From a virus (lineage: Duplodnaviria > Caudoviricetes): a stretch of DNA of 38,707 nt. The stretch is from the IMG/VR virus record IMGVR_UViG_3300010370_000087, positions 1-38,707 of that record; one strand, 5' to 3'. The position numbers were made by a program, and so were the translations under genes. The notes under the pieces are model-generated. The model saw only the letters and a program-made list of their open reading frames with translations. It ran no database searches and was not told where the DNA came from. Below, in pieces: positions 1 to 29,400 of the stretch. Position 1 is the first letter of the stretch. Each line of letters opens with the position of its first letter.

Positions 1-308
1 GCTATGCTTGATTTAAGTTGTTCATATTTTTGATCAAATGCTTGGACAGGAGTGCTATTTTGTAGCATACCACCGAATTTATCAAACCATATGTTGTTAA
101 TTTTTCCGGCAGCATCCTTGGCCTTGCCTATGAGACTTCTCCCTCCGCCCTTCTCAATCGATTTGAATAATTGATTTATTTGATCAGGTTGTAGAGCAAC
201 TTCACATAGAACAGGATGTATTTCTTTTTGCCATTTACGGAAATAGGGATCGTTACTACCTATACTTTCAAATATAGTTTCTTGACCCAGGGCTTGATAT
301 AATTTCAT
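1..308 (-). CDS. Hypothetical late protein, 5' part only (MKLYQALGQETIFESIGSNDPYFRKWQKEIHPVLCEVALQPDQINQLFKSIEKGGG...), runs off the window edge
   Basis: ATG at 308-306 and an open frame to position 1 (my own translation; not in the ORF track). TAAATA late-promoter box at 334-329 lies just upstream. Confidence 0.75.
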   Translation of the reverse strand, partial: MKLYQALGQETIFESIGSNDPYFRKWQKEIHPVLCEVALQPDQINQLFKSIEKGGGRSLIGKAKDAAGKINNIWFDKFGGMLQNSTPVQAFDQKYEQLKSSI

Positions 309-328
309 GATTTATTGACAGTATCCGG

Positions 329-334
329 TATTTA
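329..334 (-). promoter_or_regulatory. Putative gp55-dependent late promoter core (TAAATA)
   Basis: Minus strand reads acTAAATAcc, about 20 nt upstream of ATG 308. The same hexamer precedes the late genes at 6221, 13240, 13726 and 36018. Confidence 0.55.
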
Positions 335-336
335 GT

Positions 337-748
337 AACGAACTGCGTTCGTTTGCTTCTTCGTCTACGAGACTCGAAGCATTTTTGTCTTTTAGTATCA
401 TCTAGATTAAGTGGTCACACTTCGCCCAGGGCGGGCGAAGTTATGCATCATCTGAGTAGCATAGTCACACAGCGTTAGGGTGTTTAGCAGAGGCGGTTGT
501 CCGGTACCTCCATCCCCGTCTTCATACAACGGCGGCTTTACAAATATACGCTATCACATTTGTAAAACGTGCTCTATTAAGAGCGTCTTTTTGCCTTGGG
601 TTTAACCTATTCAAACAACCAAATCACGGCAATTAGTGATCTTCATCCGGGTAGGGTAGTGGTTGAGTTCTCACTTCGGCGGTGAGCATTCCGTCCCTGC
701 GACACGAAGTCCAGGTCTAGGGCGCATGAAATTAGCCTGCGCTAGCCT
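337..748 (-). ncRNA. Putative large structured non-coding RNA of unknown family
   Basis: ORF-free; about 47% GC by hand count over 331-750 versus roughly 30-35% by eye in flanking genes. At least 11 stems (713-748, 670-686, nested stems in ~617-665, 564-590, 537-566, 516-532, 489-511, 442-463, 419-441, 354-381, 337-353). Several imperfect pairs are G-U on the minus strand but A-C on the plus strand. Confidence 0.75.
397..470 (-). repeat. Two copies of GTGTGAC-N10-AGATGAT at a 50-nt period, separated by a perfect 9-bp hairpin
   Basis: Copy 1 (470-447) GTGTGAC TATGCTACTC AGATGAT; copy 2 (420-397) GTGTGAC CACTTAATCT AGATGAT; hairpin ACTTCGCCC-gccct-GGGCGAAGT at 441-419. Confidence 0.85.
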
Positions 749-1183
749 TTAACCGAGTAATTTGCCTTTAATATGGGAGCCATGGACACGAACAGATATC
801 TGTCCGTTATAGTATTCGTCTGATTCTAAAACTTTTCTTGTGAATTGTTCTCGTGCCTCAATGTATGAACATTCTGCCTTTGATTTACAGTAATATAATA
901 TTTCTCTATGAAATTTGTCTGTGCCTAATTGTGCTACGTCTTTGCTGAGATAATCGTTTGAGCCGTAATATGTCTGCCAGTCTGAGTCTATTTTTGATTT
1001 AATTCGTTTCTTTTTCTTTGTGCCGTTTTTTAGTTTTACTGTTTTATAAGAAATTTTACTAAATTTGCCTAATTTTTTGCCTATGTATTTTTTGCCTGTG
1101 ACCAAATTTGTGATAAGATATACGAAGCCTATGCAATCTTCCGGTAATTCTGTGACTAAGGTATTTTTATAATACCAAGTCAT
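749..1183 (-). CDS. Stand-alone GIY-YIG (Seg-like) endonuclease, catalytic domain only
   Basis: GFVYLITN...KKYIGKK (GIY-YIG motif), W..YYGS, FHREIL, conserved Glu in SYIE and terminal YYN. 144 aa, Lys-rich insert KTVKLKNGTKKKKRIKSK, no C-terminal NUMOD/HTH domain. Confidence 0.8.
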   Translation of the reverse strand: MTWYYKNTLVTELPEDCIGFVYLITNLVTGKKYIGKKLGKFSKISYKTVKLKNGTKKKKRIKSKIDSDWQTYYGSNDYLSKDVAQLGTDKFHREILYYCKSKAECSYIEAREQFTRKVLESDEYYNGQISVRVHGSHIKGKLLG

Positions 1184-1911
1184 TCTTTCCAGGAAATTAT
1201 ATGCGTATTCGGTGCTAGATGTTGTACAGTCATTCCTAAGTTATCAAATAAAATATCTAAACTCATATTGCTGTGCATACAAACATGTCCGTTTCTAGGA
1301 GCGATATACCAATAATTTACACCTTCATTTCTAATAATATCATTTGTGAGTGTGTGTATAACAAGTTGACCTTCCCCTTCTTTACTGAAGTTTATAATTT
1401 CTTTAGCAGTTTCATACGGGTCTGGTGTGTGTTCTAAAACTTCAAATGCTGTTATTACATCGAATTTAGCATCCTTATCAAAGTCAGGATCTTTTTTCCA
1501 TAAAGGATCCCAAGAACTTACACTAAAGCCTAGAGCATTTAATTCTGAACCAAATAGCGCAGTACCGGCTCCGTAATCTAATATAGAAAGTTCCTTGTTA
1601 TTATCTAAAAAAGGCAAGATCCACTGCGCTAATTTTTTTGGTCTAATTTCGTCGTACTCAGGGTCGACTAGTTTATACTCTTCATTGTATACATTAGTAA
1701 GGAAGTCATCAAGTGACCAATCGTCGAAATCTACAGTAAAAATAAATTTACAATGATTACATTGATGATAATAAACAGCCGTTCCTGAGTATGGAAGTAC
1801 TTGTACTCCATTTATTTCTTCGCAACTTTTGTTAAAATCTACTATACCGTAAACACTGGTAGGGTTGTCGCAGATTTTACAAGGTATATCTTTGTATTTT
1901 TGACCAATCAT
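1180..1911 (-). CDS. Class I SAM-dependent methyltransferase (Methyltransf_23-like) with N-terminal Zn-binding CxxC pairs
   Basis: CKIC...CNHC, motif I ILDYGAGTA, FDVITAFEVLEH; 4-nt ATGA overlaps with both neighbours. Confidence 0.85.
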   Translation of the reverse strand: MIGQKYKDIPCKICDNPTSVYGIVDFNKSCEEINGVQVLPYSGTAVYYHQCNHCKFIFTVDFDDWSLDDFLTNVYNEEYKLVDPEYDEIRPKKLAQWILPFLDNNKELSILDYGAGTALFGSELNALGFSVSSWDPLWKKDPDFDKDAKFDVITAFEVLEHTPDPYETAKEIINFSKEGEGQLVIHTLTNDIIRNEGVNYWYIAPRNGHVCMHSNMSLDILFDNLGMTVQHLAPNTHIISWKE

Positions 1912-2114
1912 TTTGCTTTCGCTTCTTTCCTTGCGGCCTTTTCTGCAGTGATTTCATTTCTACGGGCTTTAATTGCCTTGCTCATATCTGCTAAGGCCTT
2001 ACGGGCTCTAGTACCAGCAGCAGCATTGCCCTTTTCAAATTTTTCGTTTTCTTTTAGAAAATCTTCAAATAGTGTTTTGAGTTGATCTGAGGTTGAGGTT
2101 GTTTCGTTTGACAT
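1908..2114 (-). CDS. Histone H1-like nucleoid protein (Hc1 family)
   Basis: KFEKGNAAAGTRARKAL...KARRNEI matches the Hc1-family pattern; basic Ala/Lys tail; AAGGA upstream of the start. Confidence 0.75.
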   Translation of the reverse strand: MSNETTSTSDQLKTLFEDFLKENEKFEKGNAAAGTRARKALADMSKAIKARRNEITAEKAARKEAKAK

Positions 2115-2394
2115 TTTTGTTCCTTTTTAATTTAACTGTTCCGTCTGGTCTAATTTCTTTTCTATTTGCTACTTCTGCTTTCCAAATATCTAGTTGTTCT
2201 CTTGTTACTAATGGATTTAATTTTAACATCTCGTGTAGAACAATTCTAAGATCTCTTATAGTATTTCTAATCTCTTTGGCAGTTTTTTTTGTGTATAATT
2301 TTAAGTACGACTGATGATAGTTATGCAAATTTAAACTTAACTCTATATATTTTGAGTAAAGTTCCCTATACTTTAATACTTGTTCAGTCGACAT
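2065..2394 (-). CDS. Basic helical hypothetical protein, possibly a divergent Hc1-like paralogue
   Basis: 109 aa, Lys/Arg-rich, overlaps the gp46 stop and the Hc1 start; amphipathic helical pattern YLKLYTKKTAKEIRNTIRDLR. Confidence 0.6.
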   Translation of the reverse strand: MSTEQVLKYRELYSKYIELSLNLHNYHQSYLKLYTKKTAKEIRNTIRDLRIVLHEMLKLNPLVTREQLDIWKAEVANRKEIRPDGTVKLKRNKNVKRNNLNLRSTQNTI

Positions 2395-4168
2395 ATTCTA
2401 AACTATTCGAATAACTGGTAAATCCATTTTCTTTAATTACCCTGAGCACATTATTGACTCGACCTTGAAGTTCATCTTTGTGACTGATCAAGTAAATGTT
2501 TTTATTTCTTTCTCTACCCATTTTCTTAAGTACTGCTAACGCACTCTCTACACCTGCCGCATCCATGCCTGCGTCAACTAGTTCATCGATAAACAGTAGG
2601 TTAATAGGTTGATAAAGACCTTCCCATACATCCCTGAAGGCAAAACTCATACTTAAGATAAGTCTATTGCGTTCACCTCTGCTAAGATTATCAAAGTCTA
2701 AATCCTGTCCCAACTGTGTAATCTCCACAGACAGATCATTTTGAAATATCACACGATGCGGTAATCCTAGTTTATCTATATAATAACTAAGACGTTTGTT
2801 TAGATAGGTTAGGTTTTGATCTATAATACGTTTTCGTATGAAACTATCTTTATTTGTCAACAATTTCAAAAGAAACTCTTGATGATTTTGAACTCTTGTT
2901 AATTCATTTACTGATGTCCAATCTATTTCCTGTATGGCTGTATCTTTTAATTCTAAAATTTGTTCTTCATAAGGATTAGATTCTTCTGATTTTTGAATTA
3001 ATGCCTTTTCTAAATTTTCTAAATTGTTTTTATGTCCTAATGCTTCTGCTTCTGTGTCGTAAAATGTACTTGGTTTCTTATCTTGGCGACCTATTTTTTC
3101 TATTTCATTCACCACAATACCGTAATCGTTTACTACCTTGAGCGCATATTGTTCTGCCTCTGCCTTAAACTTGAGAGCATCGTCTAGCATTTCTTTATGT
3201 TTATGATCATGTAGTTCTTGTTCACAGGCATGACATCTTTTATCTTTTAGTTTGTCTATTTCAGAAGTGTATTTTTTAACTGTCTTTTCTGCTTGTAATA
3301 CTGCTGTCTCTAAAGTAGCCTGTTGTTTTCTGAGACTGACTAGTTTGTTGTTATTATCTAACCAAACTTTTAATTTATTGTGCGACACTAACTCTGCTTC
3401 GATATCCACTGCTTCTAGGTTAACAATAGCACGACCTAGACTTTCTAATTCTTGATCATGTTTAGACTCCCAGGCGCTACTTTTAATTTTTAAACTATCG
3501 ATACTTTTTTGTACATTATCATTCGCTGATTTAATACCTTCGATTCTAAACGTTTCTTTTGAGATTAGGTCTTTGCCTTCTTTTATCTTATTCTTGAGTT
3601 CTTCTGCTTTAGCAGATAATAAAGTTATTCCTAATAGTTGTTCTATTACTTCTCGTTGATCAGCAGCCCGCATAGCAAGGAATGGTTCGGTATAGGTATT
3701 TAGAGCAACGAGATGTTTGAACATAGTATGGCTCATTTCTAACATTTGCTCTATTGATTTTTGAGTTTCTCTACTGTCGCCCTGACTTTCGTCTTCAGAT
3801 TGTTCTGCTGTTATTTCTTTATTGTTGACAAATAGTTTGAGAACATTTGGTTTACGACCTCGTTCGATACGATAGTTAAGATTATTTTTTTCAAACTCTA
3901 CAGTGACTAACATATGTTTGTTGTTAATCTTATTGATTAAATTTTCTTTTTTAATGTTAGTCAGTGCTTGTCCGTATAGGCCATAACTCAGAGCGTTGAT
4001 GATAGTTGTCTTACCAGTACCATTTCTGGAACCTGTGTCATCGCCACCCAGGTCTAGATTAGATCCTAATACTAGAGTTAACTGTTCCTGATCAAAATCA
4101 ACAGCCTGAGTTTGGTTTCCTACACTCATAAAATTTTTCACGGTAAGTGATTTAATCTTAAAGGTCAT
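2384..4168 (-). CDS. gp46: Recombination endonuclease ATPase subunit (T4 gp46 / SbcC / Rad50-like)
   Basis: Walker A RNGTGKT, coiled coil with Zn-hook CHAC, signature LSRGE, Walker B LLFIDE, ISH. Likely start is ATG 4168 (MTFKIKSLTVKNFMS), not the track's 4198. Confidence 0.95.
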   Translation of the reverse strand: MTFKIKSLTVKNFMSVGNQTQAVDFDQEQLTLVLGSNLDLGGDDTGSRNGTGKTTIINALSYGLYGQALTNIKKENLINKINNKHMLVTVEFEKNNLNYRIERGRKPNVLKLFVNNKEITAEQSEDESQGDSRETQKSIEQMLEMSHTMFKHLVALNTYTEPFLAMRAADQREVIEQLLGITLLSAKAEELKNKIKEGKDLISKETFRIEGIKSANDNVQKSIDSLKIKSSAWESKHDQELESLGRAIVNLEAVDIEAELVSHNKLKVWLDNNNKLVSLRKQQATLETAVLQAEKTVKKYTSEIDKLKDKRCHACEQELHDHKHKEMLDDALKFKAEAEQYALKVVNDYGIVVNEIEKIGRQDKKPSTFYDTEAEALGHKNNLENLEKALIQKSEESNPYEEQILELKDTAIQEIDWTSVNELTRVQNHQEFLLKLLTNKDSFIRKRIIDQNLTYLNKRLSYYIDKLGLPHRVIFQNDLSVEITQLGQDLDFDNLSRGERNRLILSMSFAFRDVWEGLYQPINLLFIDELVDAGMDAAGVESALAVLKKMGRERNKNIYLISHKDELQGRVNNVLRVIKENGFTSYSNSLEYVD

Positions 4169-5171
4169 TATAGATGTCCAAAAGTAATTTTTTATCAAAC
4201 TGTCCGTTATCTATGTTTAATAATTGTTCTGTAACGATTTGATCTATGCTTTCAAATTTTGTGTCAGGATTATCATCGAATGAACTTTCCAAATTGCTTT
4301 TATCTTGAATTAAACTTATTTCTCTAATATCGTAATCTCTAGTAAATTCTTCTTTGATAAAATTAGCCTCTTCAAAACTGATGTCAATATCTAAATTTAC
4401 TCTTAGATACATTTTAGATTTCATTATTGAATCTTTACGATCTATTAAGTCACTTAGTTTAATTGTTCTAAACTTAGGAGCATTGTCCCAATTGATAAAT
4501 TTAGGTTTTCCTCCCCACTTTAAAACCATCATACCTCTTTCATCATCCCATGCGTCACTAAAATTATGAGGAAAGGCATTGCCGATGTAAGTTACGCAAC
4601 CATTTGTTTGACGTTTATGAAAGTGACCACTGAATACGTAATCTGGACCTTGAAAATCTTCAGCATGAAGTTCTCCGTGATCGGGCATTTGTACCATAGC
4701 GTTCATCATAAATTTAGGAAGTTCAAAATGACCAAAAACATATTTTGTTTTTACATTTTTCATCGATTTCCATTCATCACCTACTAACCAAGGTACAAGT
4801 GTGACATTGCTTAGAGTGGTGACAGAGTCTACAACAGTTACGCCTGGAATATGGCGCCCGAACGCACTACTATGAACATCACGCTTGTCTTTATAGAATA
4901 GGTCGTGATTACCGGGGAACCAAAAGAATTGTTCAAAAGCAGCACCTAATTTTTCTAACAATCTTAAACTTGTGTTTAAGGTGTATAAATTAAGACTGTT
5001 TCGATTATGGCTCCAGTCCCCTAAGAATATGGCGGTTTCACAACCTTCCTTTTTTGCGTTATCGATAAACCAGTCTATAAATTCTTCACAGTCCTGTAAG
5101 TGAACTATACTATTTGATTTAGCCCCAACGTGTAAGTCTGTGAAACATGCTACTTTTTTAAATAATGCCAT
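4158..5171 (-). CDS. gp47: Recombination endonuclease nuclease subunit (T4 gp47 / SbcD / Mre11-like)
   Basis: Metallophosphoesterase motifs TDLH, LGDW, GNHD, GHFH; adjacent to gp46; GAGGAG ribosome binding site. Confidence 0.95.
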   Translation of the reverse strand: MALFKKVACFTDLHVGAKSNSIVHLQDCEEFIDWFIDNAKKEGCETAIFLGDWSHNRNSLNLYTLNTSLRLLEKLGAAFEQFFWFPGNHDLFYKDKRDVHSSAFGRHIPGVTVVDSVTTLSNVTLVPWLVGDEWKSMKNVKTKYVFGHFELPKFMMNAMVQMPDHGELHAEDFQGPDYVFSGHFHKRQTNGCVTYIGNAFPHNFSDAWDDERGMMVLKWGGKPKFINWDNAPKFRTIKLSDLIDRKDSIMKSKMYLRVNLDIDISFEEANFIKEEFTRDYDIREISLIQDKSNLESSFDDNPDTKFESIDQIVTEQLLNIDNGQFDKKLLLDIYNDL

Positions 5172-5188
5172 AGGATCTCCTCTGTGGC

Positions 5189-5217
5189 ATTATAACAACT
5201 GCTAACCTAGATGTCAA
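5189..5217 (-). promoter_or_regulatory. Consensus sigma70-type promoter for the gp47-gp46 operon
   Basis: TTGACA (5217-5212), 17-nt spacer, TGn-extended TATAAT (5194-5189). The -35 box overlaps the gp55 stop codon. Confidence 0.9.
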
Positions 5218-6104
5218 ATAGTTTCCTCTTCATCTTCAGGTGTTTCTTCGCTTTTTGGCATTCTTGCATTTTTGTACAGGGCTGCTTGTCTAGCCGTTTC
5301 TTCGGCAAATTCTTGCGCCTGTTGTCTAGTTGAACTAGGTGTAAGACCTGCTTCTACTAACATGTCATCTCGGATGTTTTGATTTTTCTTTTCAATATTT
5401 AAGATACGTGTAAAACTGTTTGTAACTGCAGCGGTGTAATAGGCGAACGGGTTTTCTGATTTTGACTCATCAAATTGTAGACCAATTTGGCTCAATTGTA
5501 GTATGGCTTGTCCCCGCATCTCATCAATGTAGGTATAGCCACGCCAGTTGCTGCGTTGAGCATATCTTTCTGATAATTTAATAAACATCTTACCTAACTC
5601 TTCGGTAATACGTCCGTGTTCTTTACAGAATTTACCAGTTTTGATTCCGCCCTTCCAATGGCTTTTTCCAACACAGATAAGTTCATCTTCTTCATTAAAC
5701 TTCCAATGCTGAAACGGAGGAAAATTGACCTTTTCGTGATTGTCGGATGTAGTTTTTGTTGATTTTTTCCGTCCGGGGCTCAATGGAATATGTTCAAACG
5801 TCATGATTCTAAAGACCAAATCTGTTTTTTCTATTTTTTTATGATTGGGTATGAGTTCGGCTAATTTTACTTTCTTGTCTCCGTTCTCTCTTAGTTCGGA
5901 AAATGCTAACCATCCTATACGTTTGGCTCTATTTTTCTTTGCTTCTAGTATGGTTTTTTGATTGATTTTTTTTAAATCTGTTACGATAAGATCATAATCT
6001 TTAAAATCTTTATGTACGAAACTGGAAAAACTGCACTTACTTTTGTGGATTTCTGATAATAAATCCCTGTTATTTAGGTATTTTACTTTTTTTGTGGTGA
6101 TCAT
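5214..6104 (-). CDS. gp55: Sigma factor for late transcription (T4 gp55-like) with a large internal insertion
   Basis: N-terminal YLNNRDLL; C-terminal ITEELGKMF...NWRGYTYIDEM...FDESKSENPFAYYT; synteny with gp47/gp46 as in T4-like phages. Confidence 0.88.
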   Translation of the reverse strand: MITTKKVKYLNNRDLLSEIHKSKCSFSSFVHKDFKDYDLIVTDLKKINQKTILEAKKNRAKRIGWLAFSELRENGDKKVKLAELIPNHKKIEKTDLVFRIMTFEHIPLSPGRKKSTKTTSDNHEKVNFPPFQHWKFNEEDELICVGKSHWKGGIKTGKFCKEHGRITEELGKMFIKLSERYAQRSNWRGYTYIDEMRGQAILQLSQIGLQFDESKSENPFAYYTAAVTNSFTRILNIEKKNQNIRDDMLVEAGLTPSSTRQQAQEFAEETARQAALYKNARMPKSEETPEDEEETI

Positions 6105-6128
6105 TATTATTATTCTTCCTTTGAAAGA

Positions 6129-6157
6129 ATGATAGCACTATTTGTTATAAAGGTCAA
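6129..6157 (-). promoter_or_regulatory. sigma70-type promoter for gp55
   Basis: TTGACC (6157-6152), 17-nt spacer, TGn-extended TATCAT (6134-6129), then AAGGA before ATG 6104. Confidence 0.8.
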
Positions 6158-6187
6158 GAGGGGAAAAATGGCCTTTTATTTATAAGG

Positions 6188-6193
6188 TAAATA
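6188..6193 (+). promoter_or_regulatory. Late promoter core TAAATA for the baseplate operon
   Basis: ggTAAATAca, 27 nt upstream of ATG 6221; resembles the T4 late consensus TATAAATA. Confidence 0.65.
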
Positions 6194-6220
6194 CAAATTA
6201 TATAAAATTGTGGAACCTCG

Positions 6221-7153
6221 ATGCCAACATTAAATTCTATAGGTTTAACCAGCGAATCAACAGTTCAAACAGATCCTCTGCCAATATTTTCTGAAGAAAG
6301 AGAAGCAATAGTAGCCTCTAAGGTCGCTGCTGACATAGATTCATATACCAATACTAGCCAATCTGATCTAGATATATTGGCCAAATACCAAACAAGTGAA
6401 ATAGTTGATCTTACAGATCCTAATAATACTCAGTCTGAAAGATTTATTAAGTCTACTTTAAATTTAGAAAGATCAGTACCTGGAATAAATTTCGGGGCAG
6501 AAAAGTCAGGTCCTCCTACACTATCTACTCAGACAATAGATAGAAAAGGCAATAAATTAGGCAGAGACTTAAGGGTTAAGATTTTAGTTCCACCTAAATA
6601 TCTAGATAATTCGAGAACAGATATTCTTCAACCTTTTCAAGGAATAGTTTTTCCGTATACTCCTACAATAAGTTATGAAGTTAAAGCAGATTATGGTACA
6701 ACAAATGTTATGCACAATAACTTTGCTGTGAGTTTTTATCAAAGAAGCAGTATTTCTTCTATTGTTATTAATGGTAAGTTTTCTGTTAACAATGAAAATG
6801 ATGCTTTGATCTATATAGGTACAATGGTTCTTTTACGTGCTATTTCAAGAATGAGATCTGGAGGTGCTAAAGGAGGAGATGTAGATAGCGGAGCCCCACC
6901 ACCTGTTTGTAGATTATTTGGTTATGGCGACGATCAACTCAGTAATGTACCTGTTGTGCTTAATAATTATAGAATTGAAATGCCCGATTCTGTAGATTTT
7001 TTCACTGTAAAGTATGATGATAAAGTTACTAGCGTTCCAGTATTATCGACAATAGCACTAACCTTGCTGCCAATGTATAGTAGAAATGAAATGCAACAAT
7101 TTAGTGTTAATAATTATCTGAATGGTAATTTTTCAGGTAAAGGATATATCTAA
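6221..7153 (+). CDS. Baseplate / tail-tube initiator-like protein (gp48/gp54-type position)
   Basis: IVFPYTPTI...GAPPPVCRLFGYG...NVPVV pattern of tube-fold baseplate proteins; first gene of the tube-initiator, LysM, hub, spike, gp25, gp6 order. Confidence 0.6.
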   Translation: MPTLNSIGLTSESTVQTDPLPIFSEEREAIVASKVAADIDSYTNTSQSDLDILAKYQTSEIVDLTDPNNTQSERFIKSTLNLERSVPGINFGAEKSGPPTLSTQTIDRKGNKLGRDLRVKILVPPKYLDNSRTDILQPFQGIVFPYTPTISYEVKADYGTTNVMHNNFAVSFYQRSSISSIVINGKFSVNNENDALIYIGTMVLLRAISRMRSGGAKGGDVDSGAPPPVCRLFGYGDDQLSNVPVVLNNYRIEMPDSVDFFTVKYDDKVTSVPVLSTIALTLLPMYSRNEMQQFSVNNYLNGNFSGKGYI

Positions 7154-17455: not shown

Positions 17456-20400
17456 ATGGCCGAACAAAATAAAAAAACAGTAAACTTTCTTCCTGATTAT
17501 CTTAAAACAGTTAAGAATGAAAAATTTCTATCGGCCACATTAGATCAATTAATACAATCTCCAGATCTAGAAAGAGTAGATGGTTATGTAGGATCAAAAA
17601 TAACTAGCCTTTACAATCCTGTAAAAGATACATATATTTCAGAAACAGAATCTATAAGATCAAACTATCAAGTAGAACCAGGTCTAGTCTTCAAAAATGC
17701 ATCTGGTGAAATAAATGATGTAAAAGGTTATATAGACTTATTAAGTGCCATTAAAAATAATGGTGGACAAGTAAATGATCTAGATGAATTACTTAGAACA
17801 AAACATTACAGTTTTGATCCTTTAATCGATTGGGACAAACTTATTAATTATGATCAATACTATTGGTTACCAAATGGTCCAAGTGCTATTGTTTTAGATT
17901 TAGAAACTAGTCCATTTACTGAAATTATTGGCAATATGTCTTATGATTTGCCAAATGGCCCTCCATTGAGCAACGGTATGAAACTCATGTTTACACAGAC
18001 ATGGGTACAAGGGCAGAATTCATTAACCAGTTCTACTCAATATCTTGTAGAAGGAGTAGGTAAGTCTATCAAATTGATTGATCTAAAGGACCTTGAAGTA
18101 TCCGGGGATATTTCATCGGCATTCAATGAAACTTTTGATAATACCGATTTTGATACTGTAGGATTTGACAGTGATAAAAAGACAGCAAGTGTGCCTGAAT
18201 ATTATACCATTAATAGAGCAAGTGCTGACCTTAATCCGTGGACCAGATATAATAGATGGTTTCATAAAAGTGTAATAGAAGCGACCGCAGAATATAATAA
18301 AGAAGATTTATCAATAGATTACGAAAGCAGGGCCAAAAGACCTATCCTTGAATATAAAGCAGATCTTCAATTGTTTAATTTTGGATCAAAGTCAATTCAA
18401 AATATTGATGTAATTGATGATTCAACAGTTGAACCTTTCTCCGAAATTGAAGGTTCAGTTGGATATTATATAGACCAAGTGCTATTACAATCTGGATATA
18501 GGGTAATATTTAATAATGCCAATGATCCTGAAGTTAGGTCTAAGGTTTATGTTGTTAATTTTACAACTACAACAAATACTATTGAATTAGTTTCAAGTAA
18601 TGAATTTATAAATGATTTAGATAGCGTATCTGTGAACAATGGAACTAAGTATTCTGGCAAAAGTTTTTATTTTAAGGAATCTAGTTTCAAGTGGATTTAC
18701 GCTCAACAACACACTTACCTTAATCAACCTCCGTTATTTGATGTTTTAGACGAAACAGGGACAAGTGTTTCTGAAAGTGGATTTGAAAATAATTTTAAAG
18801 GTACTAGAATTTTTGGTTATGAGGAAACTACTGGTACACCTGATTCTGTGTTAGGGGTTGCCATAAAACAAACAACCACACCTTTAGGAATTGGTAGTTT
18901 CGTTTTTAAAACATATTTCAATACTGATTCTTTTGATTATGTAAAAAATAATATATCCTATAAAACTAAAATTTCGGGATATTATCTAAAGATTAATAAT
19001 CCCGATAATGGTACATATTTTTTGAATAATATATGGGTAAGTGGAATTTGGTCACAAACTACAGAGTTGGACCTTAATGGCGATTATTTTTATATAGATA
19101 ATTTTACCGTAATCCCAGAAATACCATCTCCTATTATTGAAACTAAATTATTATCTGAAAATACATCGTCTGTTAAAGTTCAAAGTTTAAGAAATGTATC
19201 TACAGTTACGTCAGTAGATACTTTTGTTAATAATATTTTGACAAGTTCAACGTTTACAATTACAAATAACGAAATAATAGTTAATTTTAATTCTACCCTA
19301 AGCCAAAATAGTTTTGTAAGTTTGAATATTGTAGGAGAAGGGAAGTTAGATGAGGAATTGGGATATTACTCAACTCCTTTAAGTTTAAACAGCAATCCTA
19401 TTAATGAAGATCTTGTAAGTCTCACATTAACGCAATTAAGCGATCATTTAAAGAGTATGGTATCTAGAGATTCTAGATTTGTTGGAAATTTTCCTGGAAC
19501 TAGTAATTTAAGAGATCTTAATAATTATTCCATACAAGGTGACAAGTTAATTGTAAATGATAATCCTATTTCCTTTGCCTTAATGTTTTTGACAAAGAAA
19601 GAACATGACTTAATCGAATCTTTAAGGTTTGGAGCCAATCAGTATAATCAATGGAAATATAATTTTATTAGAGAATTATCTAATATTGATACTCAGTCTT
19701 CTCCTAGAGAAATGTTAGATGCTGTTCTACTTAATATGAGCCAGTCAAAGTCTAATAGAGATTCATATTACAAGTCGGATATGTTAGGTTATGGCTCTGA
19801 TAAAACAGTAAGAACTATTACAGTAACTAACTTGTCGTATAGTGAATACTATCTTGGTGAAGAGTTTGATCTAAATAGTCTGAGTTACAGATCTATTTTG
19901 GTATATAAGAACGGCATTCAACTAATTCATGGTTTAAATTATGAATTTGTTTTATCTAGTAATTCGGTTAAATTTTTAACAAGTCTGGATGTTAATGATC
20001 TAATAGAATTCGTTGTATATAACACAACCGTAGGTTGTTACATTCCTCAAACACCTAGTAAATTAGGATTATATCCTGCATATACACCTTCTATAGTTAG
20101 TGACGGTAACTACGCAGGTAATCCTAAAGATGTGATCATTGGTCATGATGGTAGTAGAACTGCTGTGTTCAACGATTATAGAGATGATATAATTTTTGAA
20201 TATGAGAAAAGAGTATATAATAATATAAAGGTAAAATATAATAGGAATTTATTTGATATATTTTCAATTTTACCAGGAATAAACAGAACAACTTCTGATT
20301 ATGATCAACTTTTTAATTCTCTATTAGAAAAAGAATACAGTAAATGGGCTGCAACTTATAATGTAGATGTTGTTTCAAATATAACATACGATCCTGCTAA

Positions 20401-23400
20401 TTTTAAAACATGGAACCTAACTGGTGGTAAAGAATCAAAATATAACAAGCCTATTAAAGGAACTATTCGTAGTGTAAACAAATATTATTTCGATAGTTTA
20501 TCTATGGAAACAACTCCTTGGGAAATGTTAGGATTCCATGAAAAACCGTCTTGGTGGGAAGGGTTATATGGGCTACCTCCGTATTCATCAACGTTATCTT
20601 CTGTATGGCCTGACATAACTAACGGCTATATTGCTTCCGGCGAATATAAAGGAACATGGCCCAAATATGCTAGACCCCAATTCAATACATTATATAATCC
20701 AGTTGATTTTGCAGGTGTTAATCAATGGTTAAATTATCTATCACTAAGTGGACCTTCTGATAGAAAGGCCGATTGGACTTTTGGTGATTATAGTCCTGCA
20801 GAGGTAGCCTTTAGAAATAGCAGTTTTTATCCATTTGCCTTAAGTGTGGTTGCATGTTTGCTTAAACCCGCAGATTATACATCTAAGTTATTTGATCTAA
20901 GTAGAGTTAAATTAAATTACCTAAAACAGGCTATTATATCTGATCAATATTGTTATCTAAATCCTAGAAAAGTGTTAGTAGAAGGAGTAAACACTGAACA
21001 AACTGCTGGATATATTAATTTAATTATAGAAAGAGGTGACAGACTATTTCAAGATTATAGAAATAGTCTAGCACAGGATCTAAGTTATTGTGACTTAAAT
21101 CTACTTTACAAAGTTGGTGGATTTACAAGTAAAGAAAAAATCCAACTTAAGATTGATGCAGTTGATCCAGAGTCTACCAGTCCAGGTGTAGTGATTCCCT
21201 ATGAAGATTATGAATTAAGGTTATCAACTAGTGTACCTATCAAATCTAGTAGAATATCAGGTATTATTGTTCAAAAGAAAAACGGTAAGTTTTTAATTAA
21301 AGGTTATGATAGGCAGAATACTTATTTTACTGTTTATCAACCATTAAAAAATAATGTAATGAGTTCAATTACAGTTGGTGGGAAAACTGAACCTTACACT
21401 GTATGGCAACCTGTATTTTCTGACGGTAATGTAGGACTTACATCTATAGATATTGCTGGATCTAGTTCTGGCAAATTTTATAAGCAAGGTCAAATAGTTT
21501 TTTACAGTAACAAATATTATAGAGTTAAGGTTGCTCATAGTGCAGGAACTAAATTTAATTCAGAATATTTTCAACAATTGCCTGCACTACCTACTAAAGG
21601 TGGAGTTACTGTAAGTACAACTAAAAAATTTGATACTTTGGAAACTAAGGTTCCTTACGGCACATTATTATCTAGTGTACAAGAAGTATATGATTTAATT
21701 ATAGGATACGGAGCGTGGTTAGAAAGTCAAGGGTTTATATTTGATAAAAGTTTATCTGAATTAAATGAGATACTTAATTGGTATTTTACCGGTAAAGAGT
21801 TTTTATATTGGAGTACGCAAAACTGGGCAGATGGAAATTTAATTACTCTTTCTCCTTTTGCTTCTTATCTAAAATATCAATCTAATAATTCTATAGTTGA
21901 TAATTTATTTTCAAAAGGATACGAATACAGTTTACAAAATGCAGATGGTTTATCTTTTCCTAAAGATGGATTTGACATTTATAGGTTTGATAACGCCTGT
22001 GTTATTGAAACTAAAAATACAGAAGATGGGATCTTTTTCGCAGTATTAAATTCTGTACAAAAAGAGCATGTAATTGTATTCAATAATACAACGGTGTTTA
22101 ATGATACAATTTTTGAAAAAGTTACAGGATATCGTCAAAAGCGTATCAAGTATACAGGTTTTAGAACTAAAAATTGGAATGGTGATTTAACTAGTCCTGG
22201 ATTTGTCTATGATAATGTACAAATTGAAACATGGAAAGAAAACAAAAGTTACATTCCGGGATCGGTAGTGAGATTTAATGGGCAATATTTTCAGGCTAAT
22301 CAATCTATTGTAAATGAGATAGCATTTGACTTTCAAAAATGGACCTTTTTAAGTAAAAAACCAATTTCAGGTCTGTTGCCGAATTTTGATTACAAGATAA
22401 ATCAGTTTGAGGATTTTTATAGTGTAGATATTGACAGTTTTGATACTAAACAACAAGAATTATCTCAACATCTTATAGGCTATACACCTAGACCGTACCT
22501 TAATAAGATAATTATCGATCCAGTTGCTCAATATAAATTCTATCAAGGATTTATTAGAGAAAAAGGTACTAAGAATGTTATAGATAAGATTTTAAAAGTT
22601 AGCAACAACGAAAATCAAGAATCTATAGATGTAAAAGAAGAATGGGCCATTAGGGTAGGAAGTTATGGTTCTGATCAAACTTTTAGTGAACTAGAGGTAC
22701 AACTTAGGGAAGGGTTGAACATAGAAAACCCCTATGTTGTTAAATTTGGAAATACAAATCAAAATGAATCTAAGTTGATTCATTATGTACAACCTAGAGA
22801 AATTTTGATCAAACCAGATAATTTTAATCCTTCATCTGTGTTTAAAAATAGAACTGGAACATATAATGACAGCGGTAACATATTATTAACTGCAGGTTAT
22901 GTTCACCCTGATGATATAGATCTCACTGCCTACAATAAAAACAGTTTATTAGATATTGCCAATATTCAAAACCTAAAAAATGGTACAGTAATTTGGCTAG
23001 GATTTTTAGAAAACGGTGAATGGGACGTTTATAGGTATAATTCTCAGCAGGCCAAAGTAACTGGAGTTTTTGTAAGTAACCCAGGATCCTCTATTACTTT
23101 TGTAACAGATATTCATCATTCTTTAAAAGTGGGCGATATTATTTCTGTGGTTAGATTTAATAGGCAAGTTGATGGTGTTTATATTGTAAAGAATATTCCA
23201 AATATCAATCAATTTGAAGTAGCATCTTCATTGGTTGGTATTATAAACGAATCTATTTTGACATTCGGAAGTATATTTAGATTTGAACCATCTAGAATAA
23301 GTTCGTTAGATAACTTTGTAGAATTAGAAAATCTGTTTAATTTACCATTTGGTTCTAAAGTTTGGATAGATAATGATGAAAATTCTAAATGGGCTGTGTA

Positions 23401-26400
23401 TGAAAAAACAGACAATTACAGTTCTAGTACAGAATTTAAATCTTTCTCCAAACCCCTAGGTCAAAATTACGGACGAAGCATTTACGCAAGAGATGATGAT
23501 TTAACTGTATTAGTTTCATCTCCTGGATACCATGTTGCTGGTTCTTTGAATTATGGAAAGGTAAGTGTTTTTAGAAAAACTGCTAATACCCAAAATATAA
23601 CTAATAACTTTGATTATTTTTTAAATGCAGGACAAAATTATTGTGCAGTTAATACCACTACTGATTTCGGCTTCAGCCTTGTACACGACATTGGTAAAGA
23701 TCTTTTTATAGTTGGGGCTCCTGCTGCTTCGAATGTTAGAGCATCTATAGACAGTAATCAAAAAATTACAACTGCTACTAATGCTCTAAGTCCAAGAACT
23801 AATCAAACTGAAGGTCTAGTTAAAATTAGCACAAGAAACCAGGCCAATGTTTCTGAAGTTGCTAAAGTGGTTATTGCTCAACCATTCACAAATACTACGA
23901 CTATGCAGAATTCTAGATTCGGGCATAGCATTTACATCAATCAAGTTCCATCTACGTCTTCTACTACTGTGCTAATTGGTGCACCAGGTAATTCTGCTTA
24001 TCAAAGTACTGGATCTGTTTATGTCTATAAACTAAGTCTTCAAAATGGAAATGTTAATTTAGGATATTTTTATAATACCAGTACTGTAAATGTTCTAAGC
24101 ACTACTAGTGTGGTTATGAATGCTGGTGCAAGATGGGGAGATTCTATAGCAGGATCTAAAACAGGAGATGTTATTGCAATCAGTGCTCCTAAATATTTTT
24201 ATAGGGGTAACAAGGGTATTGTTCAACTTTTTGATAGCAATCTTAATTGGTTTCAAACATTGAACAGTCCATTCGGAAATGACGATCAGTTTGGATATTC
24301 TATTTCTGTAAGTAACTCTGGAACCTTTGTGTTTGTTAGTTCTATATTAAGCCAATCTACATTTGGAACAGAAGGCAAAGTTGCTGTTTATAAAAAGTTA
24401 GATAACCAACAACAATATTCATTAAGTCAAATCATAACCAATCCTATTAGAAATAGCGATTTGAAGTTTGGGGAATCTATTGCTATTAGTGAAGATGAGA
24501 CTTCTTTGTATATTAGTTCTTTGGGTACAAACAAATCAGAATTTGTTAAATTCTATAAAAATAAAAATACAGAAGAACAGGAAACAACTTTTGATAGTGA
24601 TAAAACTAGATTTGTTTCTAGTATAAAAGATTCTGGAACTGTACATGCCTATAGTAATTTTAATGGAAAATTTGTACAAGGATCTGAAATAGTTCCTGTA
24701 AATTTAGAACCAAATGGCAGGTATGGTTTATCCTTAGCAGCGACTAATAGGTCATTGTTTGTAGGAGCACCTCAATCTAAGGTTAAATCTTATACAAGTG
24801 ATAATAGTAAATTTTATCAATTTAAATTATTAGGTAACACGAATATATGGAAAAAAATTAGATCTCAAGAATCATCTGTTGATATCGAATTGTTTAGAAG
24901 AATTAGTCTAATAGATAATCAGCAAGAAGAACTTATTGATTACTTGGATATATACGATCCTCTAAAAGGTAAAATTCCGGGAATAGCAGAGCAAGAATTA
25001 AATTACAAATTCGTTACAGATCCCGCAGTCTACTCAGTCGGTATGGCAGGTACTACTAATGATACGCAAACAAATTGGATTGACGATCATGTAGGTGAGT
25101 TATGGTGGGATCTTAGTACGGCCAAATATGTATGGTATAACCAAGACAATGAAATATTTAAAAAGAACAATTGGGGTAAATTATTTCCGGGCGCCAGCAT
25201 AGATATATACGAGTGGGTCAAATCTGATCTTTTACCTAGCGAATGGGCAGTCCTTGCAGATACCGCTGGCGGACTAGCCATTGGCATTAGCGGACAACCA
25301 AAATATCCAGATAATAGTGTATTAAGCGTAAAGCAGGTTTTCAATACCGTTACGGGAAGTTTTGAAAATGTTTACTTCTTTTGGGTAAAAAATAAAACCA
25401 TATTACCTAAGAATGCAAATAGAAGATTAACTGCCTATCAAGTCGCAGCACTAATTTCTGATCCATTAGCGAATGGAGTAAAATTTATAGAATTTTTAAG
25501 CGACAATTCTTTTGCCTTAGGTAATGTTCAAAATAGGTTAATAGGCAATAGAATTTCTGTTAATATAGCCTACGATAAAATTAACAATAAGATTCCATTA
25601 CACACTGAATGGATGTTAATCGGTGAAGGTGATTCTACAACATTACCTAATGATCAGATTAATAAAAAGTTAATTGATAGTTTATTGGGTAGAGATAATC
25701 TAGGAAATAAAGTACCTGATCCATCTTTATCATTTAGGAATAGATACGGGCTTGGTATTAGACCTCAACAAACCTTATTTGCGGACAGATTCGCTGCATT
25801 AAGGAATATCATTGATTTTGCTAATTCTGTTTTAGAAAAAAATTTAATTACGGGAATTTATAATTTTCAAAATCTTAATAGTGTAGATCCTATTCCAGAT
25901 GATAGTCAAGGAGAATACGATTTTCTTTTAACAGATGTAGAAGAAATTACTGCTATTGATACAGAAATTTTCGTTAAGGCGCAGGTATCGTGTACTGTAA
26001 AAGATGGAATTATAGTTTCTACCAATATCATTAACGCTGGATACGGGTATGCTACTGCTCCTAAAATAACGATTACTCCTAATCCAAATAACAAGGCGGT
26101 GATATCTACTATAATTGATAATCAAGGCAGAGTAATCAGATGTGTTATAGAGAATGCAGGATTTAATTTTAGTAAATCACCTAGTCTTGCTGTTAGAAAT
26201 CATAGTGCTTTGGTAAGTGTAGATAGTAATTCTAACGGAAGATGGGCGCTTTATGAATTTAATTATAATGGTCAATGGAATAAGATAAAGACTCAATTAT
26301 TCAATACCACATTGTATTGGGATTATTTAGACTGGAGTTCTGAATCTTTTGATTCTTTAAAAACACCTTCTATTATTATTGATAATGTTTACCAATTATC

Positions 26401-29400
26401 TAGTCTAAGTTTAGAAGTTAGTAATTATGTTAAAGTTAAAAATATTGGAGATGGAAGAGCAGTTATTTTAGAACGTGTAGTTTCTAATGGTAACTTCTCA
26501 AATGAATTTGATATTGTTTTCAGTCAGAACGGCACATTGAAAATTTCTGATAATCTGTGGAACAGTGAAAATTCTAAATTTACTTTTGCCAGTTCCTCAT
26601 TAGATGAAACCTTATATGATCAACTTCCTGATATAGAATTGTACAACATATTGATAGCCTTGAAAGATGATATATTCACTAATGAATTAAAGGTAAATTG
26701 GAATCTTCTATTTTTTAAAGCGGTTAAGTATGCTCTAACTGAGCAAAAAATTCTAGATTGGGCGTTTAAAACAAGTTACATTAATATAACAAATAATTCC
26801 GGAGAACTTGACCAGCCATTTAATTTTAGAATTGATAATAACCAATATTATCAAGATTATTTCACTGAGGTTAAACCTTATAGGACTAAGATTAGAAACT
26901 ATACTGCTGGATATTCTTATATTGAAGATGCTAGATTACTAACATCTGATTTTGATGTTTCACCTTATTATAATCCATTATCTGAAAAATATGAATCTTT
27001 AAATATTCCATATACCGGACAGTCATCTTTATTAAGTCAATATCCGTATAAAACTTGGTACGATAATTCTACATATTATGTCAGTGAAATAGTTGTAGGT
27101 TATGGAGGAAAGGGATATACATCAGTACCTGAAGTTTATGTTTATAGTAATGGAAATGTTGTTCGTACTGCTACAGCAAAGGCATATTTAAAAAATAATA
27201 AAGTATGGAAAATTATTGTTACAGATCAAGGGGAAGGTTATTACGATACACCTACAATTAGTTTAAGAGGCGGTAATCCTATAGAGGAAGCCAAGGCCTC
27301 GGCTATAATCAAAAATGATACAACTAGAAAGAATATCATTACTATGAAGTTTGACAGGTATTCTCGTAAGGGTGAAATAGAGAATACAGAAGTAACTTAT
27401 ACAATAATTTGCGATGGAATCAACAGCGAATTTGAGTTACCTTACCTTGCCAATACAGATAAGTTAACAATATTTCCGACCTTAGACAGAAAACTAATTC
27501 TGTCTTCCGATTACAAAATAGTAAATTTCAGTAAAACTGATAATACACTACAGAAAAATTACAGCAAATTTGTATTTGTAGATAGAATTCCAAAATCAGG
27601 GCAGTTGTTAAAAATTGTCTATCAAAAAGACTTGTCGTATTATAATGCTATTGATAGAATTGAAAACTTTTATCAACCTACAGAAACTATGGCAGGTAAA
27701 GATCTAAACTTATTAATGACAGGTCTAGAATATCCTAATCTAAGAATAAAAGGAATGGATTTTTCCTATTCGTCTGCTTATAATATAGGTACCACAGGTT
27801 CCTACGGTATGAGTCTAGGGTGGGGTGATTTAACAAATAGTTATTCTAAATCTAGACTTGTAGAACCTGCTACAATGTCTACTAACACACTATATCTTAA
27901 CACAGTAGAAGATATTCGCATAGGACATTCTTTAAACTTTTTAAATACTTCTCAGTTCATTGTTCGGACCGATACAGTAGTTCAAGCGATTGATATTAGT
28001 AATAATATTGTTACAATCAGTAGACCAACTTATACAGCATCGGTGGCAATATCTACCACTACTGCAATAGGTACTGAAATTTTAGTATCTACAGTAAATG
28101 AATTTAGGGGTGCTATAAGACAGAATGATACTGTTGAACTTACTGGATTTTCTCCTAACGAGTTTAATGGAACATATACCATAACTACCATTTATGACAA
28201 TAATTCATTTATTGTTACAGCTTCACAGGTTTTAAGCACTACAACTTCTATAGTAGGGTCTGGTACAATAATAGTCTATAGTTTGCTTCAAAATATTGAT
28301 GTTAGAAATAGAAAAATTGGAGAATATTCATTCCATGTAGGTCCATGTAAATTTCCGGTTTATACAATAGAAAAGAGTATGGGATTTATTTCAGAAGGTC
28401 GAACAGTTACATTTACTGTAGATGGAACTGATGTTTTGTTTGGACAAGGTAGAACCTTCGAGTATGAAATTACCGGTACAAATATATTGGCCAGTGATTT
28501 TACAGATAATACTCTTACAGGATTGGCTAGTGTATTATCTTTACCTATCAACTTTACAAAAACTTTAGCAACGGATAATGATTTAGGTGTAGAGACATTT
28601 ACAGTTAATATTTTTACATATTTTACCAGCGGCACAGCGAATACATCTGTTGTTACTAGCACCAGTGTAACAATTCTACCGTATGATCCTGCTTTGCCAA
28701 CTGTGTACACAATTACAGCCAGTACATCCACAGTCCAAGAAGGCGAGTCTGTAACACTTACTCTGGATGGGACTAATGTTGATTTTGGCGATACAGGAAG
28801 AGCATTTAGATTAACGGCAACCGGTACAAATATAACAGCAGGTGATCTTATCGCAAATACACTAACAAGCGAAGTGGTTATACTAGATCAGTTACCTATT
28901 ACAGTTAGTGCCGGCTTTGCACTAGACAATCTAATTGAAGGCATAGAAAGAGTTTATTTCAATATACAAACATGGTTAAATGGCGCTGCTGAGAATACTG
29001 CTACTGTGGCTAATACGTATGTTGAAATAATTGATGTTGAACAATCTGCTACATATGAGTTTTTTGATACGCCGTCTACTATAAGTGAAGGATCTACACT
29101 GATATTGAAGTTAAGAACACAGAACAAGTCTGTGGGATCTCAAGTAGGATTTAGTCTAAGTACTCAGACAGGTGATTTTACTGTAGCAGATTTAACAACT
29201 TCTACATTGTTTGGTAAATTTATTATGACAGACGGTGCTCCTACATATCCAGGATACCAAATTGGTACATACACATATGTGGTTGCGCAGGATGCAGCAT
29301 CTACAGGTTACGAGATAGCAGAAAAGTTTCGTGTAACTATAAATGAAAATACAGCAACATATATTGATATAACAATAACAGATCAGATACAAAGTTCATT

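What the first reader, a model, noticed from the sequence alone, without database searches (positions are those of the whole stretch)
337..748. ~410-nt ornate, ORF-free structured RNA in an otherwise gene-dense jumbo phage region
Seen: this is by far the largest non-coding gap in the window and is about 47% GC against an AT-rich background. Nearly all of it folds. Minus-strand stems: AGG-CUAG-CGCA/UGCG-CUAG-CCU starting at the first base after the GIY-YIG stop (748-713); CUCAC/GUGAG; CAACCA/UGGUUG enclosing AGAUCAC/GUGAUUU; AAGACG+GCUCU/AGAGC+CGUUUU; a 12-bp UUUACAAAUGUG/UAUAUUUGUAAA; CCGUU/GACGG; GGAGGU/GCCUCU; UAUGC/GCAUA; a 9-bp ACUUCGCCC/GGGCGAAGU; two terminal hairpins. Imperfect pairs repeatedly resolve as G-U on the minus strand, which gives the orientation and favours RNA over DNA cruciforms. 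I see no tRNA, tmRNA, RNase P or group I/II intron hallmarks. Inference: a large phage ncRNA, conceptually like GOLLD/ROOL/HEARO but not one I can assign.
Basis: partly seen in the sequence, partly recalled or inferred. Interest (0 to 1): 0.88.

Follow-up and report, generated by a model that had tools for sequence, protein, structure and literature searches.

The report
Self-gripping phage origin primer RNA
This gene-free gap in a giant freshwater phage holds a conserved, four-times-knotted fold of about 360 bases whose first third is already catalogued without a function, and it likely acts as an RNA that pairs back onto its own DNA template to start genome copying, as the primer RNA of ColE1 plasmids does.

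Summary
The structure is real, but not new at its 5' end: window 747-613 (-) is Rfam Polynucleobacter-1 (111.7 bits). Conservation runs on to ~337. In 111 phage homologues 33 column pairs beat a tree-based null, 19 of them beyond the Rfam model, with four pseudoknots. The body ends in two 7-mers flanking a hairpin, identical in 110 of 111 while both change together; the base after them is G in copy 1 and A in copy 2 (86 to 0), as expected if RNA copy 1 pairs with the DNA template of copy 2. A tail with DNA-type C-GNA-G loops follows. The GIY-YIG gene is only a neighbour: the same end module occurs without it in integrase islands and, 4-5 times evenly spaced behind promoters, in cultured Rak2-like phages. 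A syntenic PA5oct paralogue is a published low-level RNA ending exactly at its second repeat. Best reading (0.6): a ColE1-RNA-II-like origin primer; no priming, R-loop or transcript of this locus is shown, and skew tests were negative. The scan had reached this idea on other DNA (24 notes).

The parts
395..756 (-). Full-length structured RNA body (~360 nt; 5' edge may reach ~766; 3' end predicted at or just after the second repeat)
   Evidence: ends inferred, not mapped
613..747 (-). Rfam RF01718 Polynucleobacter-1 part: pseudoknot 742-738:726-722, stems 715-712:699-696, 711-709:703-701, 685-682:674-671, 665-660:621-616, 640-636:627-624, non-canonical U.C/C.U pair 656:645
   Evidence: (111.7 bits, gathering 37)
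752..756 (-). 5' leader strand, inside the last codons of the GIY-YIG ORF, pairing with loop 680-676 (pseudoknot)
   Evidence: 754:678 above null
471..568 (-). Double-pseudoknot core: long hairpin 568-556:547-535, kiss 552-548:475-471, knot 530-526:500-496, stems 516-513:481-478 and 510-506:494-490
   Evidence: (both knots 98% paired; 0 of 500 shuffles reach the score)
445..453 (-). Repeat copy 1 (AGAUGAU+GC), predicted to pair with the DNA template of copy 2
   Evidence: 453/403, 449/399, 447/397 covary by identity
420..440 (-). GC-rich hairpin between the repeats
395..403 (-). Repeat copy 2 (AGAUGAU+AC); predicted anchor and RNA-to-DNA switch region
   Evidence: analogy to PA5oct ncRNA004 end
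337..394 (-). Tail: A-rich spacer 394-382, hairpin 381-355, terminal hairpin 353-337 with C-GCA-G loop; likely single-stranded-DNA signals (also a possible terminator for the + strand)
749..1183 (-). 144-aa SegE-type GIY-YIG nuclease domain with a basic hairpin and no DNA-binding domain; syntenic neighbour, not a required partner
   Evidence: PF19835 E 5.6e-32, phrog_447, I-TevI fold Z 7.7, rmsd 3.0, 82 aligned
5189..5217 (-). Perfect sigma-70-type promoter (12 of 12, TG) ahead of the gp47-gp46-...-GIY-YIG run; likely source of the transcript
   Evidence: no minus-strand terminator-like site in 1-6300

Best explanation
The element is likely a transcription-primed replication origin: a conserved, pseudoknotted RNA fold (shown) whose repeat copy 1 is predicted to pair with the DNA template strand at repeat copy 2, which would hold an R-loop and leave an RNA end that primes DNA synthesis. 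Steps: (1) host-type RNA polymerase reads in from the promoter at 5217-5189 through the GIY-YIG gene (inferred; in Rak2-like phages a promoter sits right in front of the RNA); (2) the RNA folds into four pseudoknots (shown by covariation) that present copy 1 single-stranded beside the hairpin (inferred); (3) copy 1 pairs over ~9-10 nt with the template of copy 2 (inferred from identity covariation and one-sided G/A wobble); (4) the transcript ends or is cut near copy 2 and is extended by a DNA polymerase (inferred; one PA5oct paralogue ends there); (5) the A-rich spacer opens and C-GNA-G hairpins on the displaced DNA load helicase/primase (inferred). The GIY-YIG nuclease is likely a branch-processing neighbour that other phages replace by EndoVII or RusA.
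For: Twin 7-mers identical in 110 of 111 sequences, 18.6 expected from marginals, rare variants included; they change 24, 12 and 14 times at three positions on the protein tree with no protein residue following and no complement within the RNA or flanks (6 own vs 8.2 other). Position 8 is G/A in 86, A/G in 0, identity resumes at 9-10 (81 and 62 of 111, 0 of 2000 shuffles); mean paired run 9.3 nt for copy1:template2 vs 7.1 the other way. Independent family (44 distinct island copies): 35 identical, 8 differ by one base, all G/A, 1 offset by an insertion. Rak2-like copies: 22 of 22 identical hexamers in 3 variants, double-knot descriptor 22 of 22, 0 of 440 shuffles, 0 of 22 antisense, each behind a -35/TATAAT promoter of the class that PMC5259590 (passages) places before DNA-synthesis genes; 4-5 same-strand copies spread evenly (min-gap P 0.0045-0.047, related genomes). 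Tail: C-GNA-G loops in 65 of 111 tails, 0 in the bodies, 0 of 96 other intergenic 3-4-nt-loop hairpins in four genomes. PA5oct: the syntenic gap has two paralogues; one is ncRNA004 (PMC7318152 Table 1, 0.08/0.03/0.02% of phage reads), whose published 3' end 246,734 is the last base of the second CATAAG repeat, followed by 87.5% AT and a shared tail. An RNase HI gene follows the syntenic gap in phage Phosso. Precedent: rG/dC anchoring in ColE1 and promoter+DUE R-loop origins in T4 (PMC4412123 section 3, PMC5043065 passages).
Against: No transcript, end, R-loop or priming shown for this locus (only low-depth contigs of relatives, no excess over genes). GC skew does not switch at the element in 4 of 4 near-complete genomes, and no saw-tooth skew between the 5 GAP32 copies (Spearman p 0.30 and 0.051). 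Homology to the Rak2-like RNA is not significant by sequence or CM (best E 0.029; E 0.12; no RF01718 hit); the descriptor was written after seeing both families; PA5oct and Phosso fail it. No RNase H gene in G001-G004 (0 of 4). The terminal hairpin has more A-C than G-U on the RNA strand (13 vs 4) and a T-run on the other strand, so it may be a terminator. The G/A state at position 8 may be one inherited state. GAP32 has 13 intergenic C-GNA-G hairpins, only 3 in copies. Integrated islands need not have an origin.
Confidence: 0.6

Rival explanations
1. Template-gripping RNA with another purpose: the RNA-DNA anchor is real but serves pausing/termination, recombination initiation, or tethering of phage DNA, not priming.
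For: Explains the twin-repeat data equally well; resolvase-type nucleases sit beside the syntenic copy (EndoVII, RusA); no skew signal; islands carry integrases (33 of 33).
Against: Even spacing of promoter-led copies and DNA-type tail loops fit origins better.
Confidence: 0.17
2. Free-standing structural ncRNA (ROOL/GOLLD-like) in which the twin 7-mers pair with each other as a parallel homo-base helix or bind a dimeric protein; the tail is a two-way terminator.
For: Pseudo-twofold layout of the two repeat units; homo-pairs would also give identity covariation; terminal hairpin scores as a + strand terminator.
Against: Homo-pairing predicts no G/A direction, yet it is 86:0 and 8:0; the PA5oct paralogue is rare, not abundant.
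Confidence: 0.12
3. RNA partner or guide of the GIY-YIG nuclease (OMEGA/HEARO-like ribonucleoprotein).
For: 76 of 76 RNA loci with enough upstream DNA have the gene upstream on the same strand; 67 of 78 judged gene loci have the RNA; protein has a conserved basic hairpin and no DNA-binding domain; RNA overlaps the stop codon.
Against: 0 of 63 island loci that are RF01718-type (2 of 2 scanned hit Rfam) have the gene; none in 5 Rak2-like/PA5oct genomes; gene without RNA in 11 of 78 loci and in a complete 162-kb genome; unrelated ORFs sit between them in at least 7 loci; no covarying residue.
Confidence: 0.08
4. Cis-regulatory 3' UTR or riboswitch-like element.
For: PMC2864571 table lists it as possibly cis-regulatory; stop codons lie just before it.
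Against: Downstream genes vary and are often convergent (35 of 89 judged); stand-alone promoter-led copies exist.
Confidence: 0.03

Closest known systems
Polynucleobacter-1 RNA motif (Rfam RF01718; Weinberg et al. 2010, PMC2864571)
   Same: Window 747-613 matches the whole 141-position model at 111.7 bits.
   Different: The motif is only the 5' third; the RNA runs ~220 nt further with a double-pseudoknot core and twin repeats, then a DNA-type tail; four pseudoknots not in the Rfam consensus line; no function was assigned in what I could read.
ColE1 RNA II pre-primer
   Same: Promoter-driven folded RNA whose upstream segment would pair with template DNA near its 3' end; downstream displaced-strand signals (works like).
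   Different: No sequence likeness (no Rfam RNAI-type hit, no plasmid match); anchor is a freely varying 7-10-nt mixed sequence, not a G/C run; no antisense control RNA seen; phage and island, not plasmid.
T4 oriF/oriG R-loop origins
   Same: T4-like phage, promoter plus AT-rich unwinding element, several per genome.
   Different: T4 origins, as described in PMC4412123, need no large conserved RNA fold or repeat anchor.
PA5oct ncRNA004 (PMC7318152)
   Same: Paralogue of the gap at the same genomic position; promoter, repeat-hairpin-repeat, AT-rich spacer, hairpin tail.
   Different: No detectable sequence or descriptor match to the window RNA; 619 nt.
HEARO/omega RNA, ROOL, GOLLD (recalled)
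   Same: Large, ornate, in phages or beside a nuclease gene.
   Different: No Rfam hit; nuclease dispensable; abundance not shown.

Membership tests
Polynucleobacter-1 (RF01718) | Score above gathering over the full model | tested here: met
   111.7 vs 37 bits, positions 1-141
ColE1 RNA II family (membership) | Sequence/structure likeness to ColE1-type replicons | tested here: not met
   No such Rfam hit; no plasmid match
ColE1 RNA II-like primer (works like) | Upstream promoter transcribing through the site | tested here: inconclusive
   Consensus promoter 4.4 kb upstream; promoters directly upstream in Rak2-like copies; not shown active here
ColE1 RNA II-like primer (works like) | Upstream RNA segment complementary to template DNA near the 3' end | tested here: met
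   Comparative only:
ColE1 RNA II-like primer (works like) | Persistent R-loop and RNA-to-DNA junction | not testable with these tools
   PA5oct RNA end at repeat 2 is a hint only
ColE1 RNA II-like primer (works like) | RNase H processing | tested here: inconclusive
   PF00075 in 0 of 4 freshwater genomes, present in PBECO4, adjacent in Phosso; host enzyme could serve
ColE1 RNA II-like primer (works like) | Displaced-strand ssDNA signals downstream | tested here: inconclusive
   C-GNA-G loops enriched in the tail; function untested
ColE1 RNA II-like primer (works like) | Antisense control RNA | not tested
   Only a chance-level + strand promoter match at 282-311
Replication origin | Strand-skew switch at the site | tested here: not met
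   skew follows the coding strand; not expected for one-way or recombination-driven replication
OMEGA/HEARO-type RNA-guided nuclease | Obligate nuclease gene beside the RNA | tested here: not met
OMEGA/HEARO-type RNA-guided nuclease | Variable terminal guide matching a target | tested here: inconclusive
   No unpaired hypervariable end seen; no target search run
Retron msr-msd | Reverse transcriptase in the genome | tested here: not met
   PF00078 in 0 of 5 genomes, control rang in 3 of 14
ROOL / GOLLD / group I-II intron / RNase P / tmRNA / tRNA | Match to the family model | tested here: not met
ROOL / GOLLD | Very high abundance | tested here: inconclusive
   searches are contigs only

The most novel reading that the evidence does not exclude
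A widespread, protein-free class of RNA-encoded replication origins in jumbo phages and integrative islands: a multi-pseudoknot RNA that anchors itself to its own template through a reprogrammable 7-10-nt repeat, present as one origin in freshwater phages and as 4-5 evenly spaced origins in cultured Rak2-like phages. It would give the first function to Polynucleobacter-1 and a second, independent solution to ColE1-type priming.
Probability: 0.5. Interest if true: 0.88.

Novelty: new variant of a known kind. Interest (0 to 1): 0.72.

Why it matters
How 300-400-kb T4-like jumbo phages start DNA replication is not known from anything I found. This names the candidate origins, in phages that grow on laboratory E. 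coli and Pseudomonas, and gives a sharp test (single versus double repeat mutants). It also turns a 141-nt orphan motif into a 360-nt RNA with a covariation signature, identity between direct repeats with one-sided wobble, that marks RNA-to-own-template pairing and could be used to find other such origins.

Tried and rejected
Expression: runs X1-X8 are contigs of relatives at low depth and cover genes and RNA alike: no evidence either way. GC/AT skew: negative. Protein residue covarying with the repeats: none convincing (best: residue 94 changes with repeat position 1 on 4 of 4 branches, but 31 A-type copies keep E). Partner for the 7-mers inside the RNA or flanks: none. Second copies in four freshwater genomes: none. 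blastn of the window element against cultured phages and plasmids and of the island RNA against plasmids: no match. CM of the core on Rak2-like loci: not significant. Genome contigs pattern gave 4 hits, all phage-like contigs inside MAGs. Island-type pattern in viral contigs gave 13 chance hits. Hairpin-telomere idea from the fold-back in L076 and the end of L082: dropped, since contig ends scatter along the element and a close relative (L086) reads through. Foldseek gave no match at E<=0.001. No complex prediction was run.

Full report
Observation. The gap 309-748 is the largest in the window (440 nt, next 116) and 47.9% GC against 33.7%. The minus strand folds at z -2.86, the plus strand at -0.71. 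Rfam gives one real hit: RF01718 Polynucleobacter-1, 747-613 (-), 111.7 bits, E 1e-24. No tRNA or tmRNA. The only paper holding that name is PMC2864571; I saw its table row and supplement passages (16 sequences, no function), not Additional files 1 and 3.

Context. The window is an 11%-complete viral record. Upstream on the same strand lie a 144-aa SegE-type GIY-YIG protein (749-1183), a methyltransferase, an Hc1-like protein and genes I read as gp46/gp47/gp55 (gp55; gp46/47 from their sequence and synteny). The nearest cultured phages by gp55 are PA5oct and the Rak2-like group, 42-48% identical. A 12-of-12 sigma-70 match at 5217-5189 points toward the element, with no minus-strand terminator-like site in between.

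Full length and structure. From 80 loci of the nuclease and 119 loci of a core motif, 169 were full length and 111 non-redundant (mean identity 64%). With a home-made R-scape-like null (12 tree-based permutations, threshold 71), 33 column pairs pass, 25 of them at least 80% canonical, 19 of the 33 lying 3' of the Rfam model. They define stems and four pseudoknots: 756-752:680-676, 742-738:726-722, 552-548:475-471 and 530-526:500-496 (the last below my threshold, but 98% paired with three pairs changing on both sides, run on 50 of the 111). The body is RNA-like: G-U 205 vs A-C 38, GNRA loops with non-C-G closing in 74 of 111, a U.C/C.U swap at 656:645.

Twin repeats. Three passing pairs covary by identity (453/403, 449/399, 447/397). 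The two 7-mers, 47-65 nt apart around a GC hairpin, are identical in 110 of 111 (18.6 expected) and change many times on the tree, while the CUC/UCU just before them stays different in all 111, which argues against gene conversion. No partner exists in the RNA or flanks or the protein. Position 8 is G in copy 1 and A in copy 2 in 86 cases, never the reverse, and identity resumes at 9-10. rG:dT is tolerated and rA:dC is not, so the simplest reading is that RNA copy 1 pairs with the template strand of copy 2 (inference). ColE1 uses an rG stretch and a template dC stretch in this way (PMC4412123 section 3, read whole; PMC5043065 passages).

Tail. After copy 2 come an A-rich spacer and hairpins with C-GNA-G loops (65 of 111 tails, 0 bodies), C-TNC-G loops that read GNA on the other strand (36 of 111) and C-GNYA-G loops (15); 98 of 111 tails have at least one; 0 of 96 other intergenic hairpins in four genomes do. 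d(GNA) loops are stable in DNA (PMC3201870, abstract start only); the likeness to primosome assembly sites is recalled, not tested. Against: the terminal hairpin also looks like a + strand terminator.

The nuclease is a neighbour. It is upstream in 76 of 76 judged RNA loci (43 of 119 too short), but 11 of 78 judged nuclease loci lack the RNA, as does a complete 162-kb genome, and other ORFs intervene in at least 7 loci. Sixty-three metagenome loci of the Polynucleobacter type have no such gene; they lie between a DUF6641 gene and an integrase (the DUF6641 count used a loose motif), hit RF01718 (2 of 2 scanned) and carry the same twin-plus-tail end: of 44 distinct copies 35 are identical twins, 8 differ by one G/A in the same direction, 1 is offset (9 loci too short, duplicates removed). 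The predicted fold is an I-TevI-type catalytic domain (pLDDT 82.8; Z 7.7).

Cultured phages. At the syntenic place PBECO4, GAP32, Munch and others have EndoVII and a long gap, PA5oct a RusA-like gene, Phosso a resolvase, a 1-kb gap and RNase HI. The PBECO4 gap has relatives in 73 records and 4, 5, 5 and 3 copies in PBECO4, GAP32, BF and K64-1, all on one strand and evenly spread. All 22 copies from 9 phages begin behind a -35/TATAAT promoter (the class described in PMC5259590, passages), fit a descriptor of the double-knot core (22 of 22; 84 of 111 freshwater; 0 of 440 shuffles; in four genomes only the element itself, 3 of 4) and have identical twin hexamers. Statistical homology is weak, so I call them look-alikes with a shared core, probably related. 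In PA5oct the syntenic gap has paralogues at 12.9 and 246.1 kb; the latter is ncRNA004, seen by RNA-seq at 0.08, 0.03 and 0.02% of phage reads (PMC7318152 passages). Its stated end, 246,734, is the last base of the second CATAAG flanking a G-rich hairpin, followed by 87.5% AT and a tail shared with the syntenic copy. This is one approximate end of an element that fails my descriptor, so it is a hint.

Negative results. No skew switch or saw-tooth; no RT; no RNase H or EndoVII family hit in G001-G004; no expression evidence.

Earlier notes. After I had noted the origin idea at 30%, the scan's notes showed 24 findings on other DNA, most with the primer reading; they gave me the leads to cultured phages, islands and self-template pairing, which I then tested. 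One further note already mentions up to five copies. None of those shown mentions the wobble direction or ncRNA004's end.

Print. Searches found no paper on the full-length RNA, the repeats or origins in these phages; the library lacks most subscription papers.

Verdict. Real RNA structure; member of RF01718 at its 5' end; likely works like ColE1 RNA II without being a member of that family. New variant of a known kind; mechanism 0.6; interest 0.72.

Noticed in passing
window 334-329 (-): TAAATA just after the terminal hairpin, ahead of the ORF starting at 308; resembles the ATAAATA late-promoter motif of PMC5259590; present in 26 of 89 judged homologous loci.
   Followed up: partly
window 1911-2114 (-): 68-aa Hc1 histone-like protein (PF07432) in the operon leading to the RNA.
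   Followed up: no
window 749-1183; phrog_447: The family is labelled 'NAD synthetase' in PHROGs and many records but has a GIY-YIG fold; its slot is held by EndoVII, RusA or a resolvase in related phages, and G001-G004 have no EndoVII hit, so it may be their branch resolvase.
   Followed up: partly
L076 3955-4068: Contig folds back on itself exactly at the terminal hairpin; L082 ends inside it. Assembly artefact or real hairpin end, unresolved.
   Followed up: partly
L278 16559-17574 (Sinorhizobium phage Phosso): 1-kb unannotated structured gap between a Holliday junction resolvase and RNase HI, with C-TTC-G and C-GAA-type tail hairpins; no match to my models.
   Followed up: partly
NC_071039.1 12.7-13.7 kb, 75.7-77.1 kb, 246.0-247.0 kb: Three promoter-led paralogous non-coding elements in PA5oct; the 76-kb one is annotated as several tiny ORFs.
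   Followed up: partly
L314-L376: Small integrase islands (DUF6641, RNA, variable cargo, 188-aa integrase, AAA ATPase) in freshwater metagenomes; no known Rep family among the 13 proteins scanned.
   Followed up: partly
window 17456-29998 (+): 4180-aa ORF in the structural module.
   Followed up: no
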